Shown: positions 50,982 to 53,194 of the stretch, piece after piece | How positions within the stretch are numbered: the stretch's first letter is position 1 | How the letters are laid out: every line of letters begins with the position of its first letter | Assembly: GCF_048403405.1 (NCBI RefSeq) | Contig: NZ_CP183129.1 | Strand: one strand, 5' to 3' | Length of the DNA stretch: 64,000 nt | Origin: Escherichia coli | GTDB lineage: Bacteria; Pseudomonadota; Gammaproteobacteria; Enterobacterales; Enterobacteriaceae | Program-made: the position numbers and the translations under genes | The notes under the pieces: generated by a model | The model's input: the letters and a program-made list of their open reading frames with translations, nothing else | Database searches by the model: none | What the model was told of the DNA's origin: nothing

Positions 50982-52145
50982 TTATCCAGCAATGTAATGC
51001 GGAACGAAACGTGAGGTGTCTTTGGTGATCAGCGTGTTATCTTCACGGATCCCCATTCCGCACGCTTCATCATCGACAATCCAGCTACCGATGAGTGTGT
51101 AGCTATCGCCAAATCGCGGCAGAGGTTGAAACGCCTGGTAGATCATCGGTTCATCGGCGTAATCACCATCAGCGTGGTCAACGACGTTATTCTGACCGTC
51201 GAAAATGGTGACGTTTCCGCCTTCGCGTGAGTAGATCGGTTTACGCACATAGCTTTCGCCAGCGGCAATCTGCGGTTTTTCGCCCTCAAACCAGGATGCA
51301 AGAAGGTTAGGATGACCAGGAAAGAAGCGCCAAAGCAGCGGCATTAACCCTTTGTTGCTCAAGATACTTTTCCATAACGGCTCCACCCATTGCTCGCGGC
51401 GCTTGCGCAGCAGCGGACCGTTATCGTCACGCATCATCCACTCCAGCGGATACAGCTTAAATGCACGCTGGATGACATTATCATCAAGATCGGTCAGTAC
51501 GCCGCCGACGCCCAAACCGAGATCTTCAATGTAGATAAACCGCGACTCCTGCCCTGCCTGCTGGGCGCAGTCCTGCAAGTACAGCACGGTACTCCTGTCT
51601 TCATCGGTGTCCTGACAGCAGCAAAAATAAAACGGTTCCCGACTGTAAAGCTCGCTAAAGCGCGAAATCAGGCGTTCCTGAATGGCATTGTACTGATCGG
51701 CATCACGCGGAATAATGCCGCTGCGCCGGGCATCCTCCAGCCACAGCCACTGGAAATAAGCCGATTCATACAACGAGGTTGGCGTATCGGCGTTGTACTC
51801 CAGCAGCTTCACCGGCGCATTGCCACACCAGGCAAAATCCATCCGGCCATAGAGCGAAGGATCGCGTGCGCGCCAGCTTTCGGCGATCACATCCCAGTAC
51901 AACGGCGGGATCGCCAGTTGCGTCAGGATCTCTTCGTCTTTAACCGCGCAATCCACCACCTCAAGGCACATCTGATGCAGTTCCGCAGTTGGTTTTTCGA
52001 TCTGCTCTTCAATCTGACGCAGGGTAAAGCGGTAAGCCCGACTCTCATCCCAATAGATTTCATTGTCGATGATATGAAAGTCGAAACCGTTGTCAGCGGC
52101 GATCTGGTCCAGATCCCGCCGCACAGGAACGTTGTGTCTCAGCAT
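50982..52145 (-). CDS. yjfC: ATP-grasp protein, glutathionylspermidine-synthetase-like (YjfC)
   Basis: 387 aa from MLRHNVPV (ATG 52143-52145); last gene of the yjfIJKLMC cluster. Confidence 0.88.
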   Translation of the reverse strand: MLRHNVPVRRDLDQIAADNGFDFHIIDNEIYWDESRAYRFTLRQIEEQIEKPTAELHQMCLEVVDCAVKDEEILTQLAIPPLYWDVIAESWRARDPSLYGRMDFAWCGNAPVKLLEYNADTPTSLYESAYFQWLWLEDARRSGIIPRDADQYNAIQERLISRFSELYSREPFYFCCCQDTDEDRSTVLYLQDCAQQAGQESRFIYIEDLGLGVGGVLTDLDDNVIQRAFKLYPLEWMMRDDNGPLLRKRREQWVEPLWKSILSNKGLMPLLWRFFPGHPNLLASWFEGEKPQIAAGESYVRKPIYSREGGNVTIFDGQNNVVDHADGDYADEPMIYQAFQPLPRFGDSYTLIGSWIVDDEACGMGIREDNTLITKDTSRFVPHYIAG

Positions 52146-52147
52146 GA

Positions 52148-52786
52148 TTAGCCTCCCCAATGCCCACGGGCGCTGGAAGAACGACCATAGCCGCCGCGAG
52201 AAACGGTTGACGCTTTTTTGGTGGTAAAGCCGCCCGAAGAGTAAGACTCTTTTTTGCCAGAACCGGAGCGCCAGGAGTAATCACCAGAAGTGTTGCGCCA
52301 GACGGGGCGCGAAGCAAAAGAGGAACCGCCGCTGTTATACACAAACTGCTCGTCGCGATCTTTACGAATAACCCGGCTTAACAAAAATCCAGAAACAACC
52401 GGGATCCAACTCTGTTCAACGTTGTCGTAGTAACAATTTTCATACTTAGACTGACAATTCTGCTGAGTCATATTCTTCGGAACATCGGCATAAAACGCCG
52501 CTTTGGCGTTGTTCCAGCCATGAGCACAGATATCTGAATTATTACCGTCATCAATACAATCCTGCACAGTCGAGTAAAACGTTCCGTCGCCGTCGTTATC
52601 GACATCGCCATTATCGCCACAACCTTTCAATACGAAAAAAGCGGCACCGCCCATTAGCACCAACGTTAAGTATTTTTGTGCGTAGCGATTGCGGCGCGGC
52701 TCAAAAGGATTATGCGGTCTTCCAATGCGACTGATCGCTCCGTGACCAATTTTACTGTTATTTCTTGATTTGCGTTTTCTGGCCAT
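52148..52786 (-). CDS. yjfM: DUF1190 protein YjfM
   Basis: 212 aa; basic N-terminus, one hydrophobic segment, Gly/Ser-rich C-terminus. Confidence 0.85.
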   Translation of the reverse strand: MARKRKSRNNSKIGHGAISRIGRPHNPFEPRRNRYAQKYLTLVLMGGAAFFVLKGCGDNGDVDNDGDGTFYSTVQDCIDDGNNSDICAHGWNNAKAAFYADVPKNMTQQNCQSKYENCYYDNVEQSWIPVVSGFLLSRVIRKDRDEQFVYNSGGSSFASRPVWRNTSGDYSWRSGSGKKESYSSGGFTTKKASTVSRGGYGRSSSARGHWGG

Positions 52787-52795
52787 GATCGTCCA

Positions 52796-53194
52796 TTACC
52801 ATGTCATACAAGCTGCGTTAAAAATACCGCCAGCCAGTGCGGCGGTTCCCATAAACATTCCTGCTGCGGTATTGTGATTAATAATTTTTTCGCTTAATGC
52901 GGGCATATAAAGTCTGACGCCAGCAAAAACGAGTAACTGAATCACCAGTGCGATCCCGCCCCAGGCGAAATAGTCTGGAATACTCACCGCATTGATTGCC
53001 GCACTGGATAACGGGATCACGTAACCCAACAATGTACCGCTGAACGCCAGTGACGCCGCGGTATTATTGTTTTTGATTAACTGCCATTCGTTGTGCGGTG
53101 TAATTTTAGAATAGATAAACAGAAAAATAATCACCATAGCCACGCCAATAAAAAAATAGGCACTAAAGGCAAGAAGTGAATCCAGTATATGCAT
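52796..53194 (-). CDS. yjfL: DUF350 small inner membrane protein YjfL
   Basis: 132 aa from MHILDSLLAF (ATG 53192-53194); about four hydrophobic segments. Confidence 0.85.
   Translation of the reverse strand: MHILDSLLAFSAYFFIGVAMVIIFLFIYSKITPHNEWQLIKNNNTAASLAFSGTLLGYVIPLSSAAINAVSIPDYFAWGGIALVIQLLVFAGVRLYMPALSEKIINHNTAAGMFMGTAALAGGIFNAACMTW

What the first reader, a model, noticed from the sequence alone, without database searches (positions are those of the whole stretch)
52148..52786. YjfM has an unusual architecture: a long basic N-terminal tail before a single hydrophobic segment, and a Gly/Ser-rich C-terminal tail
The first 40 residues are rich in Arg/Lys (MARKRKSRNNSKIGHGAISRIGRPHNPFEPRRNRYAQKY), followed by one hydrophobic stretch (LTLVLMGGAAFFVL) ending in KGC and then Asp/Gly repeats (DNGDVDNDGDG). 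The C-terminus is low-complexity (GGSSFASRPVWRNTSGDYSWRSGSGKK...GGYGRSSSARGHWGG). A cytoplasmic basic tail of this kind could bind nucleic acid or acidic lipid, with the rest displayed outside the membrane. It is separated from the operon-level finding because it is a protein-level peculiarity.
Basis: seen in the sequence. Interest (0 to 1): 0.4.

Follow-up and report, generated by a model that had tools for sequence, protein, structure and literature searches.

The report
YjfM: lipoprotein relative with polybasic tail
The gene is E. coli yjfM, a member of the uncharacterised DUF1190/YgiB envelope-protein family, and its odd ends are real: one enterobacterial branch added a long positively charged N-terminal tail to a lipoprotein-type signal whose lipid-attachment motif has decayed, and the "low-complexity" C-terminus holds the family's most conserved motif.

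Summary
Window 52148-52786 (- strand) encodes 212-aa E. coli YjfM (Pfam DUF1190), a 23%-identical paralog of YgiB, in the yjfIJKLMC operon.

Most of the family has a short, classical lipoprotein signal peptide (MKRS+..LxLMG..L[ATS][GA]C, Cys near residue 22).
- In the YjfM clade, about 33 basic residues were added upstream, giving n-regions of 27-47 aa with +8 to +14 basic residues.
- All 25 long-tailed representatives have a non-canonical lipobox, with K/R/N/H at -2 or no Cys. Among short-tailed ones, 84 of 87 are canonical.
- Cys56 is replaced by Trp in divergent Escherichia lineages and is absent in Franconibacter and Siccibacter.
- The hydrophobic segment is more conserved than the folded domain.

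AlphaFold2 gives a confident orphan-fold domain at residues 68-175, so the second hydrophobic stretch and part of the "Gly/Ser tail" are folded. A variable linker follows (176-193), then TxSRGG[FY]G...WGG-COOH.

My best reading is an N-in, uncleaved signal anchor that keeps a cytoplasmic polybasic tail (confidence about 0.45). An atypical cleaved lipoprotein is not excluded.

An untested lead: the conserved C-terminal Gly-Gly may be the substrate of the adjacent peptide-spermidine ligase YjfC.

The parts
52148..52786 (-). yjfM coding sequence (212 codons plus TAA), a DUF1190 family protein
   Evidence: ORF list and translation. 100% match to annotated yjfM. Pfam PF06693 at E=9.3e-18, residues 69-211. 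The NCBIfam YgiB equivalog model scores 48 bits against a cut-off of 223, so this is a paralog and not YgiB itself.
52670..52786 (-). Residues 1-39: polybasic N-terminal tail (12 K/R, 1 E), predicted disordered and cytoplasmic. Residues 1-33 are a clade-specific extension
   Evidence: Composition. The family consensus start MKRS[KR] aligns to YjfM residues 34-38. All 25 long-tailed representatives have n-regions of 27-47 aa with +8 to +14 basic residues. dN/dS is 0.05-0.17 within Escherichia, while dN is 0.37-1.08 across genera. pLDDT is 49-63 with no secondary structure.
52628..52669 (-). Residues 40-53: the only membrane-type hydrophobic segment (LTLVLMGGAAFFVL), either a signal-peptide h-region or a signal anchor
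   Evidence: Highest hydropathy window. L40, T41, L42, M45, G46, G47 and A48 are nearly invariant in orthologs. dN is 0.055-0.14 against 0.18-0.37 for the folded domain. Conservation is 3.45 bits against 2.38 bits for the domain in the long-tailed group.
52619..52627 (-). Residues 54-56, K-G-C: a degenerate lipobox (L53-K54-G55-C56)
   Evidence: The PROSITE PS51257-type pattern and the classic [LVI][ASTVI][GAS]C pattern are not matched. K is at -2 and the Cys is at position 56. Position -2 is K/R/N/H in every long-tailed member that keeps the Cys. The Cys is Trp in L006, L008 and L011, and is absent in Franconibacter, Siccibacter, P0122 and P0143.
52583..52618 (-). Residues 57-68: acidic Asp/Asn/Gly loop with two overlapping DxDxDG matches, a sub-clade-specific insertion
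   Evidence: Regular-expression match. D63 and N64 are invariant in orthologs. These columns are occupied in only 24-54 of 112 family members. The motif is present in 10 of 25 long-tailed and 0 of 87 short-tailed members. The region is low-confidence in the model.
52262..52582 (-). Residues 69-175: compact alpha/beta domain with invariant C77, C87, C111, C118 and P129, G133. It includes the second hydrophobic stretch (127-140) and the first part of the Gly/Ser-rich region
52208..52261 (-). Residues 176-193: variable Gly/Ser/Lys linker that tolerates insertions and deletions. It contains two A6 runs (52250-52255 and 52214-52219)
   Evidence: Lowest conservation in the protein (1.07 bits). dN is 0.46-0.87. 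One allele carries a 12-aa duplication, and database frameshifts start at the A6 runs. pLDDT is about 50.
52151..52207 (-). Residues 194-212: conserved C-terminal motif T-x-S-R-G-G-[FY]-G-x5-R-[GS]-x-W-G-G-COOH
   Evidence: T194 83%, S196 75%, R197 98%, G198 86%, G199 97%, G201 100%, W210 71%, G211 95%, G212 75% (Ser 19%) across 112 representatives. Zero non-synonymous changes against Escherichia and Citrobacter. At 2.94 bits it is the most conserved region family-wide.
50982..52145 (-). yjfC, a cytoplasmic ATP-grasp peptide-spermidine ligase. Its ATG lies 2 nt after the yjfM stop
   Evidence: Annotation. Identical to PDB entries 7UK6 and 7UK7, 'acid-amine ligase YjfC'. It lies immediately downstream of the DUF1190 gene, with a gap of 0-5 nt in nearly all of the 38 related loci examined; two overlaps (L012, L032) look like frameshifted DUF1190 ends.
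52796..53194 (-). yjfL, a DUF350 multi-span inner-membrane protein. Its stop lies 9 nt before the yjfM ATG
   Evidence: Annotation. It lies immediately upstream of the DUF1190 gene in every locus that has enough DNA.

Best explanation
YjfM is the E. coli representative of an Enterobacteriaceae-specific branch of the DUF1190/YgiB family. That family is ancestrally made of small lipoproteins encoded between a DUF350 membrane protein and a glutathionylspermidine-synthetase-like ATP-grasp ligase.

In this branch the N-terminal targeting region has been rebuilt:
- About 33 basic, disordered residues were added upstream of the old MKRS start.
- The hydrophobic core was kept and became highly conserved.
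- The lipobox lost its canonical -2 residue. It is now Lys, Arg, Asn or His, and in several lineages the Cys itself is gone.
- In a sub-branch, an acidic DxDxDG loop was inserted just after it.

The most likely result (inferred, not shown) is a bitopic inner-membrane protein with N inside and C outside. The hydrophobic segment would stay as an uncleaved signal anchor. The polycationic tail would stay in the cytoplasm, where it fixes orientation and lies against the anionic inner leaflet or a cytoplasmic or membrane partner from the same operon (YjfL or YjfC).

The periplasmic part would consist of:
- an acidic juxtamembrane loop that may bind a divalent cation;
- a four-cysteine, presumably disulfide-bonded, orphan-fold domain;
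- a flexible linker;
- the conserved TxSRGG[FY]G…WGG end, whose role is unknown.
For: Family and ancestry:
- Pfam DUF1190.
- 84 of 87 short-n-region representatives carry a canonical lipobox, with Cys near residue 22.
- The same DUF2170-PspA-DUF2491-DUF350-DUF1190-GSP_synth operon holds canonical-lipobox members.

Remodelling:
- 25 of 25 long-n-region members are non-canonical (Fisher p=5e-22, not corrected for phylogeny).
- Cys56 is Trp in Escherichia sp. MOD1-EC7003, E. whittamii and a divergent 'E. coli'.
- There is no Cys at this position in Franconibacter and Siccibacter, or in P0122 and P0143.

Retention of the anchor:
- The h-region has dN of 0.055-0.14, against 0.18-0.37 for the folded domain.
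- It scores 3.45 bits against 2.38 bits for the domain.
- The tail is under purifying selection within Escherichia and stays strongly basic across the clade.

Orientation: charge asymmetry across the segment, with an acidic four-Cys domain downstream.

There is no second transmembrane segment, because residues 127-137 are beta strands in a pLDDT>90 domain.

The only localisation measurement in the family places the paralog YgiB in inner-membrane fractions, even though its LAGC-Glu(+2) signal predicts the outer membrane (PMC7055658 supplement).

Some annotation pipelines already name YjfM 'membrane protein'.
Against: - E. coli YjfM keeps Leu(-3), Gly(-1) and Cys(+1), and most clade members do too. 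This is unexplained if the box were functionless.
- The uncharged core is only 14-15 residues (K38 to K54). That is typical of a cleaved signal peptide and short for a transmembrane helix.
- [ILV]-x-[GAS] before position 56 also fits the -3/-1 rule of signal peptidase I, even in the Cys-less variants.
- AlphaFold2 does not model the segment as a helix.
- The h-region is also somewhat more conserved than the domain in canonical-lipobox members (2.05 against 1.79 bits). Conservation alone therefore does not prove retention.
- The long-tailed group is essentially one clade, so the Fisher test counts one evolutionary event many times.
- There are no localisation, lipidation or N-terminal sequencing data for YjfM itself.
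- I could not run SignalP, LipoP or a topology predictor.
Confidence: 0.45

Rival explanations
1. Atypical but functional lipoprotein. The 55-residue N-terminus is an extended signal peptide. Lgt and LspA still process L-K-G-C, the basic tail is cleaved off and degraded, and mature YjfM starts at lipidated Cys56. In this reading the tail only tunes targeting or export kinetics, as the extended signal peptide region of autotransporters does.
For: - The family is overwhelmingly lipoprotein-like.
- The literature calls YgiB a predicted outer-membrane lipoprotein and DUF1190 a 'metal-chelating lipoprotein'.
- Leu(-3), Gly/Ala/Ser(-1) and Cys(+1) are retained in most of the clade, including all ordinary E. 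coli.
- The h-region has signal-peptide length.
- The early mature region is acidic and therefore compatible with export.
Against: - Lys or Arg at -2 is excluded by every published lipobox pattern I know (PROSITE PS51257, DOLOP and G+LPP, from general knowledge), and the patterns were tested here and not matched.
- The Cys at position 56 lies far outside the usual 15-35 range.
- The Cys has been lost in at least three lineages that keep the tail, the h-region, the domain and the operon.
- The h-region is more conserved than the mature domain.
- The paralog YgiB is not in the outer membrane.
Confidence: 0.28
2. Signal peptidase I substrate. The lipoprotein site has turned into a -3/-1 site ([ILV]-[KR]-[GAS] then cleavage). 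YjfM would then be released as a soluble periplasmic protein, and the tail would again be lost.
For: An aliphatic residue at -3 and a small residue at -1 are retained even in Cys-less variants: VKG|W in L006, L008 and L011, and LRG|N in Siccibacter. The h-region has signal-peptide length.
Against: - There is essentially no polar c-region between the hydrophobic core and the putative site.
- P0122 and P0143 lack a plausible -3/-1 site.
- The strong conservation of the h-region and the cost of a 39-residue conserved-charge tail are unexplained.
- The paralog is membrane-bound.
Confidence: 0.12
3. The basic tail is a nucleic-acid-binding arm. It would tether DNA or RNA to the membrane.
For: Only composition: Arg/Lys-rich, Gly/Pro-containing and disordered.
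Against: - There is no conserved sequence motif beyond charge across genera.
- No nucleic-acid-related gene is in the conserved yjfLMC triad or in the PspA-type operon.
- Most of the family has no tail at all.
Confidence: 0.03

Closest known systems
YgiB (E. coli b3037; UPF0441/DUF1190; encoded in tolC-ygiB-ygiC)
   Same: - Same Pfam family.
- Same order of parts: basic n-region, h-region, Cys, four-Cys domain, W/F-x-P…G-[FY], T-x-[ST]-R-G-G-F-G, and a C-terminal Gly-Gly.
- Also followed directly by a paralogous peptide-spermidine ligase gene, ygiC.
- ygiBC and yjfMC deletions together aggravate the tolC growth defect (cited).
   Different: - Only 23% identical. YjfM scores far below the NCBIfam YgiB equivalog cut-off.
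- YgiB has a canonical LAGC lipobox at Cys37 and a 20-residue n-region. YjfM has LKGC at Cys56 and a 39-residue n-region.
- YgiB lacks the DNDGDG loop.
- It sits in a different operon, with no PspA or DUF350 genes next to ygiB.
Classical bacterial lipoproteins (lipobox L-[ASTVI]-[GAS]-C; Lgt/LspA/Lnt pathway)
   Same: The ancestry is the same. The layout is n-region, h-region, then a small residue followed by Cys. An acidic region follows the Cys.
   Different: Position -2 is Lys. The Cys lies at residue 56. The n-region is about five times the usual length. The Cys is dispensable in relatives.
Extended signal peptide region (ESPR) of autotransporters and two-partner secretion proteins
   Same: Both are N-terminal extensions of about 25-35 residues in front of an otherwise ordinary Sec signal. 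Both are confined to particular clades.
   Different: The ESPR has its own conserved sequence motif and is cleaved off with the signal peptide. The YjfM tail conserves only its basic charge, shows no sequence resemblance to the ESPR as I recall it, and may not be cleaved. This comparison rests on memory and was not tested here.
DxDxDG calcium-binding loops (Rigden and Galperin motif)
   Same: Two overlapping matches, D61-V-D-N-D-G and D63-N-D-G-D-G. D63, N64, G66, D67 and G68 are conserved in orthologs.
   Different: This is a pattern match only. The loop is low-confidence in the model. It is present in only 10 of 25 clade representatives and in none of the rest of the family.
Gly-carboxylate/amine ligation: glutathionylspermidine synthetase acting on glutathione, and C-terminal Gly-Gly spermidine conjugates of SUMO and ubiquitin
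   Same: YjfM ends in Gly-Gly. The next gene encodes a glutathionylspermidine-synthetase-type ATP-grasp enzyme that ligates spermidine to peptides and whose physiological substrate is unknown. Spermidine amidation of a protein's C-terminal Gly-Gly has a precedent.
   Different: No experiment links YjfC to YjfM. YjfC is cytoplasmic, whereas the YjfM C-terminus is predicted to be periplasmic. SUMO and ubiquitin use E1/E2 enzymes, not an ATP-grasp enzyme.

Membership tests
DUF1190 / UPF0441 (Pfam PF06693) | Significant match to the Pfam profile | tested here: met
   E=9.3e-18, residues 69-211 against model positions 5-159 of 159. RefSeq annotates the gene as 'DUF1190 domain-containing protein'.
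DUF1190 / UPF0441 (Pfam PF06693) | Family-invariant residues: four Cys, P129, G133 and the T-x-S-R-G-G-[FY]-G motif | tested here: met
   All are present in YjfM. Column statistics come from 112 representatives.
DUF1190 / UPF0441 (Pfam PF06693) | Gene neighbourhood DUF350 - DUF1190 - GSP_synth-type ATP-grasp | tested here: met
   The window has this order, and so does every related locus examined. YgiB is the exception, with no DUF350 gene upstream.
YgiB equivalog (NCBIfam NF008655 / PRK11653) | Whole-protein score above the curated cut-off of 223 bits | tested here: not met
   48.3 bits. BLASTP identity to K-12 YgiB is 23%. YjfM is a paralog, not YgiB.
Bacterial lipoprotein (PROSITE PS51257-type lipobox) | {DERK}(6)-[LIVMFWSTAG](2)-[LIVMFYSTAGCQ]-[AGS]-C, with the Cys between residues 15 and 35 | tested here: not met
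   The pattern is not matched. K54 sits at -2 and inside the six-residue uncharged stretch, and the Cys is at position 56.
Bacterial lipoprotein (PROSITE PS51257-type lipobox) | The lipidated Cys is conserved among orthologs | tested here: not met
   It is Trp in L006, L008 and L011. It is absent in L023, L024, L027, P0101, P0102, P0122 and P0143.
Bacterial lipoprotein (PROSITE PS51257-type lipobox) | Diacylglyceryl modification and LspA cleavage | not testable with these tools
   This needs lipid labelling with globomycin, or N-terminal mass spectrometry. No such data for YjfM were found in the searchable literature.
Type II (N-in) signal-anchor inner-membrane protein | A single hydrophobic segment with a positive-inside charge bias | tested here: met
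   The one qualifying segment is 40-53. The 15 residues before it carry +5/-1 and the 15 after carry +1/-5. The second hydrophobic stretch is part of a folded domain.
Type II (N-in) signal-anchor inner-membrane protein | A hydrophobic span long enough to cross the bilayer (about 18 or more residues) and left uncleaved | tested here: inconclusive
   Only 14-15 uncharged residues lie between K38 and K54. Sites compatible with signal peptidase I and II remain. Whether cleavage happens cannot be tested here.
DxDxDG calcium-binding loop | Sequence pattern D-x-[DN]-x-[DN]-G | tested here: met
   Two overlapping matches at residues 61 and 63.
DxDxDG calcium-binding loop | Loop geometry and metal coordination | not testable with these tools
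   The region has pLDDT below 50, and the tool returns no coordinates.
Protein substrate of a GSP-synthetase-type ATP-grasp ligase | A free C-terminal Gly carboxylate that is conserved and genetically linked to the ligase | tested here: met
   In A2, 101 of 112 members end in GG and 11 end in GS. In the wider set, about 87% end in GG, 10% in GS and 3% otherwise. The ligase gene lies 0-5 nt downstream in nearly every locus.
Protein substrate of a GSP-synthetase-type ATP-grasp ligase | Substrate and enzyme in the same compartment, and the modification observed | tested here: inconclusive
   The predicted topology puts the C-terminus in the periplasm and YjfC in the cytoplasm. The linker-fusion AlphaFold2 docking attempt was uninformative, because YjfC itself reached a mean pLDDT of only 52. 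No mass-spectrometry data are available.

The most novel reading that the evidence does not exclude
DUF1190 proteins (YjfM and YgiB) may be the missing physiological substrates of the peptide-spermidine ligases YjfC and YgiC. The ATP-grasp enzyme encoded 0-5 nt downstream would amidate the family-invariant C-terminal …W-G-G carboxylate with spermidine. This is the same Gly-carboxylate chemistry as glutathionylspermidine synthetase.

The modification would happen on the disordered tail before export or while export is being completed, and would yield a polyamine-tipped envelope protein. In the YjfM clade the added polybasic N-tail could hold the precursor at the membrane long enough for this to happen.

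I could not read Pederick et al. 2023, so I cannot say whether they already proposed this.
Probability: 0.15. Interest if true: 0.75.

Novelty: new variant of a known kind. Interest (0 to 1): 0.4.

Why it matters
YjfM and YgiB are among the conserved E. coli envelope proteins that still have no function. They sit in operons tied to membrane stress (a PspA homolog, and Cpx control of ygiB) and to polyamine chemistry.

This work shows three things about YjfM:
- The family is lipoprotein-derived.
- One branch has swapped a standard lipobox for a polybasic tail plus a degenerate box.
- The real conserved 'business end' is the C-terminal TxSRGGFG…WGG motif.

Each point can be tested directly, by a topology and lipidation assay and by mass spectrometry of the C-terminal peptide for a +127 Da spermidine adduct.

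The measured inner-membrane location of YgiB already contradicts the textbook prediction of an outer-membrane lipoprotein. The family's localisation rules therefore deserve a second look.

If the ligase-substrate link holds, it would give YgiC and YjfC their physiological substrate and would add a new bacterial protein modification. If it does not, the finding is still a tidy example of a lipoprotein signal turning into something else.

Tried and rejected
1. Second transmembrane helix at 127-140. This would have put the basic C-tail in the cytoplasm next to YjfC. I rejected it because the stretch is 11-14 residues long, contains R138, and is modelled as beta strands in a pLDDT>90 domain.

2. 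Natural YjfM-YjfC fusion proteins as 'Rosetta stone' evidence for a cytoplasmic C-terminus. I rejected this because the database fusions are frameshift read-throughs that start at the A6 runs at codons 178-179 and 190-191.

3. Twin-arginine (Tat) export of YjfM through R31-R32. I rejected it because the RR pair is not conserved in orthologs, which have KR, QR, GR and others.

4. Alternative downstream start codon that would remove the tail. None exists before codon 42.

6. AlphaFold2 docking of the YjfM C-terminal 25 residues to YjfC through a 30-residue linker, with 19 paired rows. YjfC itself folded poorly (mean pLDDT 52) and the tail reached only about 26, so the test says nothing either way.

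7. Direct experimental data on YjfM.
   - It is not in the main text of any relevant paper.
   - It is absent from the stored, truncated supplementary tables of Sueki et al. 2020.
   - Dhamdhere and Zgurskaya 2010, Sui et al. 2012, Pederick et al. 2023 and Papanastasiou et al. 2013 are not held.

I used the 17-ortholog alignment instead.

9. Internal promoter or terminator signals around yjfM. Counts did not exceed those in shuffles.
Full report
**What is there**

The finding's coordinates hold a 639-nt ORF on the minus strand, 52148..52786.
- It is 100% identical to annotated yjfM of several E. coli genomes and is present in 5421 of 5426 complete E. coli genomes.
- It lies in the known gene row rnr-rlmB-yjfI-yjfJ-yjfK-yjfL-yjfM-yjfC-aidB.
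- Pfam assigns residues 69-211 to DUF1190 at E=9e-18.
- The NCBIfam model for its paralog YgiB hits far below its cut-off, 48 against 223 bits. BLASTP identity to K-12 YgiB is 23%.
- So the protein is a known but uncharacterised family member, and the finding is about its architecture.

**Check of the observation**

| Residues | Content |
|---|---|
| 1-39 | 12 Lys/Arg and one Glu, net +11 |
| 40-53 | Uncharged, the most hydrophobic window in the protein |
| 54-56 | K-G-C |
| 57-126 | Net -10, four Cys, two overlapping DxDxDG matches (DVDNDG, DNDGDG) |
| 152-212 | 13 Gly and 16 Ser in 61 residues, net +8 |

- In 20,000 composition-preserving shuffles, the basic window is matched in 3% of shuffles, the acidic block in 0.05% and the Gly/Ser enrichment in 0.005%.
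- The N-terminal net charge is the highest of 59 long ORFs in the window.
- No alternative in-frame start exists before codon 42.
- The tail's dN/dS within Escherichia is 0.05-0.17. It is therefore translated and constrained.

**The family is lipoprotein-derived, and the tail is a clade-specific addition**

An exhaustive phmmer search gave 152 representatives. Parsing their ends shows three groups:
- Most begin M-K-R-S-[KR], followed by L-x-L-M-G…L-[ATS]-[GA]-C with the Cys near residue 22. This is a textbook lipoprotein signal peptide.
- A YgiB-like group has a medium extension, with the Cys at about 31-39.
- The YjfM group has n-regions of 27-47 residues carrying +8 to +14 basic residues.

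The family's start aligns to YjfM residues 34-38, so residues 1-33 are an N-terminal extension.

Every one of the 25 long-tailed representatives has a non-canonical lipobox, with K, R, N or H at -2 or with no Cys. Among short-tailed representatives 84 of 87 are canonical. Fisher p is 5e-22, but the long group is one clade, so this reflects one event that has since been maintained.

A genome scan placed the clade in Enterobacteriaceae: Escherichia, Citrobacter, Kosakonia, Phytobacter, Enterobacter, Atlantibacter, Franconibacter, Siccibacter, Buttiauxella and one Serratia; Salmonella and Klebsiella orthologs came. It also showed that Cys56 is not essential:
- It is Trp (KGW) in Escherichia sp. 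MOD1-EC7003, in E. whittamii and in a divergent 'E. coli' lineage. That allele is rare among complete E. coli genomes.
- It is absent in Franconibacter and Siccibacter.

The DNDGDG loop is a further insertion confined to a sub-clade, present in 10 of 25 long-tailed and 0 of 87 short-tailed members.

**Rates of change by region**

Across genera:

| Region | dN |
|---|---|
| Tail | 0.37-1.08 |
| Linker 176-193 | 0.46-0.87 |
| Folded domain | 0.18-0.37 |
| Hydrophobic segment plus box | 0.055-0.14 |
| C-terminal motif | 0-0.14 |

- A hydrophobic core that is more conserved than the mature domain is not what cleaved signal peptides usually show. That expectation is general knowledge, not something tested here. 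It argues that the segment is part of the working protein or is specifically recognised.
- The same tendency, though weaker, is seen in canonical-lipobox members, 2.05 against 1.79 bits. This weakens the inference.
- YjfM as a whole evolves much faster than its neighbours in the same genomes. It is 42-69% identical where YjfC is 78-90% and YjfL is 64-93%.

**Structure**

With a 112-sequence alignment, AlphaFold2 gives pLDDT above 90 for residues about 68-175. The domain has three helices and a sheet of about six strands.
- The 127-140 hydrophobic stretch forms buried strands, so it is not a second transmembrane helix.
- Residues 1-62 and 176-212 are low-confidence.
- AFDB50 returns only DUF1190 proteins.
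- C77, C87, C111 and C118 are conserved at 99-100%. In a periplasmic domain this suggests two disulfides. Ravi et al. call the family 'metal-chelating'. I could not measure distances in the model.

**The C-terminus**

The last 19 residues carry the strongest linear motif of the family, T-x-S-R-G-G-[FY]-G…R-[GS]-x-W-G-G.
- G201 is invariant, R197 is at 98% and G211 at 95%. About 87% of representatives end in Gly-Gly and about 10% in Gly-Ser.
- The 176-193 stretch before it behaves as a spacer. It has the lowest conservation, and one allele carries a 12-residue duplication.

**Context**

In all 38 related loci that I could read, the order is DUF350 (yjfL), DUF1190, then a YjfC-type ATP-grasp gene. 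The last two genes are 0-5 nt apart in nearly all; two apparent overlaps (L012, L032) look like frameshifted DUF1190 ends.
- This holds whether or not the yjfIJK (CesT/Tir-like, PspA, DUF2491) genes are present.
- It holds whether the lipobox is canonical or not.
- YjfC is cytoplasmic and has solved structures, 7UK6 and 7UK7.
- RefSeq now names YjfC 'peptide-spermidine ligase'.
- A 2025 review states, for the paralog YgiC, that the physiological substrate of this activity is unknown.

**Experimental evidence**

I found none for YjfM itself. For the paralog YgiB:
- It is repeatedly called a predicted outer-membrane lipoprotein.
- Quantitative sucrose-gradient proteomics nevertheless assigns it to the inner membrane, with a ratio of -0.78.
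- This is unexpected for LAGC followed by Glu at +2. It fits better with a family that stays at the inner membrane.

**Interpretation**

Shown:
- Family membership.
- The clade-specific remodelling of the first 68 residues or so.
- The dispensability of Cys56.
- The N-in charge bias.
- The folded core.
- The conserved C-terminal motif.
- The invariant gene triad.

Inferred:
- E. coli YjfM keeps its N-terminus as an uncleaved anchor with a cytoplasmic polycationic tail. I put this at about 0.45.
- It could instead be an atypical cleaved lipoprotein (about 0.28) or a signal peptidase I substrate (about 0.12).
- The retained L-x-G-C skeleton and the short 14-15-residue core keep those two alternatives alive.
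- What the tail binds is not addressed by any data. The anionic inner leaflet, YjfL or YjfC are the plausible candidates, because the tail persists where yjfIJK is missing. Nucleic-acid binding has no support.

**Most novel reading not excluded**

The conserved C-terminal Gly-Gly may be the carboxylate that YjfC or YgiC amidates with spermidine.
- For it: the tight linkage, the glutathionylspermidine-synthetase chemistry on a terminal Gly, the unknown substrate, and the precedent of spermidine on SUMO and ubiquitin Gly-Gly.
- Against it: the compartment mismatch.
- Members ending in Ser-Ser or Gly-Ser keep the ligase gene. This neither helps nor hurts much.
- My docking attempt failed technically.

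**Verdict**

The protein is a known family member with a previously undescribed variant architecture, as far as the searchable literature shows. Interest is moderate, and it rises if the ligase-substrate idea proves true.

Noticed in passing
window 52250-52255 and 52214-52219 (A6 runs on the coding strand, codons K178-K179 and K190-K191 of yjfM): Many database proteins shift frame exactly at these runs. P0004 (424 member sequences) and P0011 (97) are truncated or altered. Several apparent YjfM-YjfC fusion proteins, for example the 602-aa AFDB entry A0A0A7A2Y8, are read-throughs into the TTG-extended yjfC frame. Whether this is homopolymer sequencing error or real phase variation or pseudogenisation is unresolved.
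   Followed up: partly
window 52208-52261 (yjfM linker, residues 176-193): One E. coli allele (P0003, 224 aa, 35 member sequences) carries a 12-residue tandem duplication, SGGFTTKKASYS, in the linker.
   Followed up: partly
window 52148-52786: yjfM is unusually diverse inside E. coli. Of 5421 complete genomes, only 7 are at least 99% identical in nucleotides to this window's allele, 2881 are at 95-99% and 2533 are at 90-95%. Between genera, YjfM diverges two to four times faster than its neighbours YjfL and YjfC.
   Followed up: partly
family alignment A2, columns aligned to YjfM residues 34-56: The signal peptide itself is a conserved family motif, M-K-R-S-[KR]-x3-L-x-L-M-G…L-x-[GA]-C (K 82%, L42 91%, M45 75%, L53 85%). 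It is more conserved than the folded domain even in canonical-lipobox members. This hints at a role beyond generic Sec targeting, for example recognition by the always-adjacent DUF350 membrane protein.
   Followed up: partly
representatives P0172, P0186, P0201, P0210, P0238, P0252: A subgroup of DUF1190 proteins has 'RRF'-type, twin-arginine-like n-regions in front of a canonical lipobox. If they are exported by Tat after folding, a cytoplasmic modification before export would be easy to accommodate.
   Followed up: no
L037:2245-2916 (E. coli K-12 ygiB): The paralog YgiB has LAGC at Cys37 with Glu at +2, so it is predicted to be an outer-membrane lipoprotein. It was nevertheless measured in inner-membrane sucrose-gradient fractions and is classed as IM-peripheral in STEPdb. 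The prediction and the measurement disagree.
   Followed up: partly
loci L002, L016, L017, L020, L023, L024, L025, L027, L028 (upstream of the DUF350 gene): No yjfK homolog was found in the upstream sequence held for several Enterobacteriaceae loci (Franconibacter, Siccibacter, some Citrobacter, Phytobacter ursingii). In L002, rlmB directly precedes the DUF350 gene. The yjfLMC triad is the conserved core, and the PspA module can be detached from it.
   Followed up: partly
window 52787-52795 (9-nt yjfL-yjfM spacer): A mouse-gut evolution study lists a 'yjfL/yjfM' mutation among alleles transmitted between hosts (PMC10340439). The spacer is only 9 nt long and contains the yjfM ribosome-binding region. 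The supplementary details were not available.
   Followed up: partly
window 52146-52160: The mechanical ORF for yjfC starts at a TTG five codons upstream (MGRLIM…), overlapping the last codons of yjfM. RefSeq starts yjfC at the ATG 2 nt after the yjfM stop. Either way the two genes are placed for translational coupling.
   Followed up: no
L012 (Citrobacter sedlakii) and L032 (Xenorhabdus szentirmaii): In these two genomes the DUF1190 ORF loses the …WGG end and runs on into yjfC (…SWGANHAAT, and a 280-aa product). These look like frameshifts near the C-terminus.
   Followed up: no
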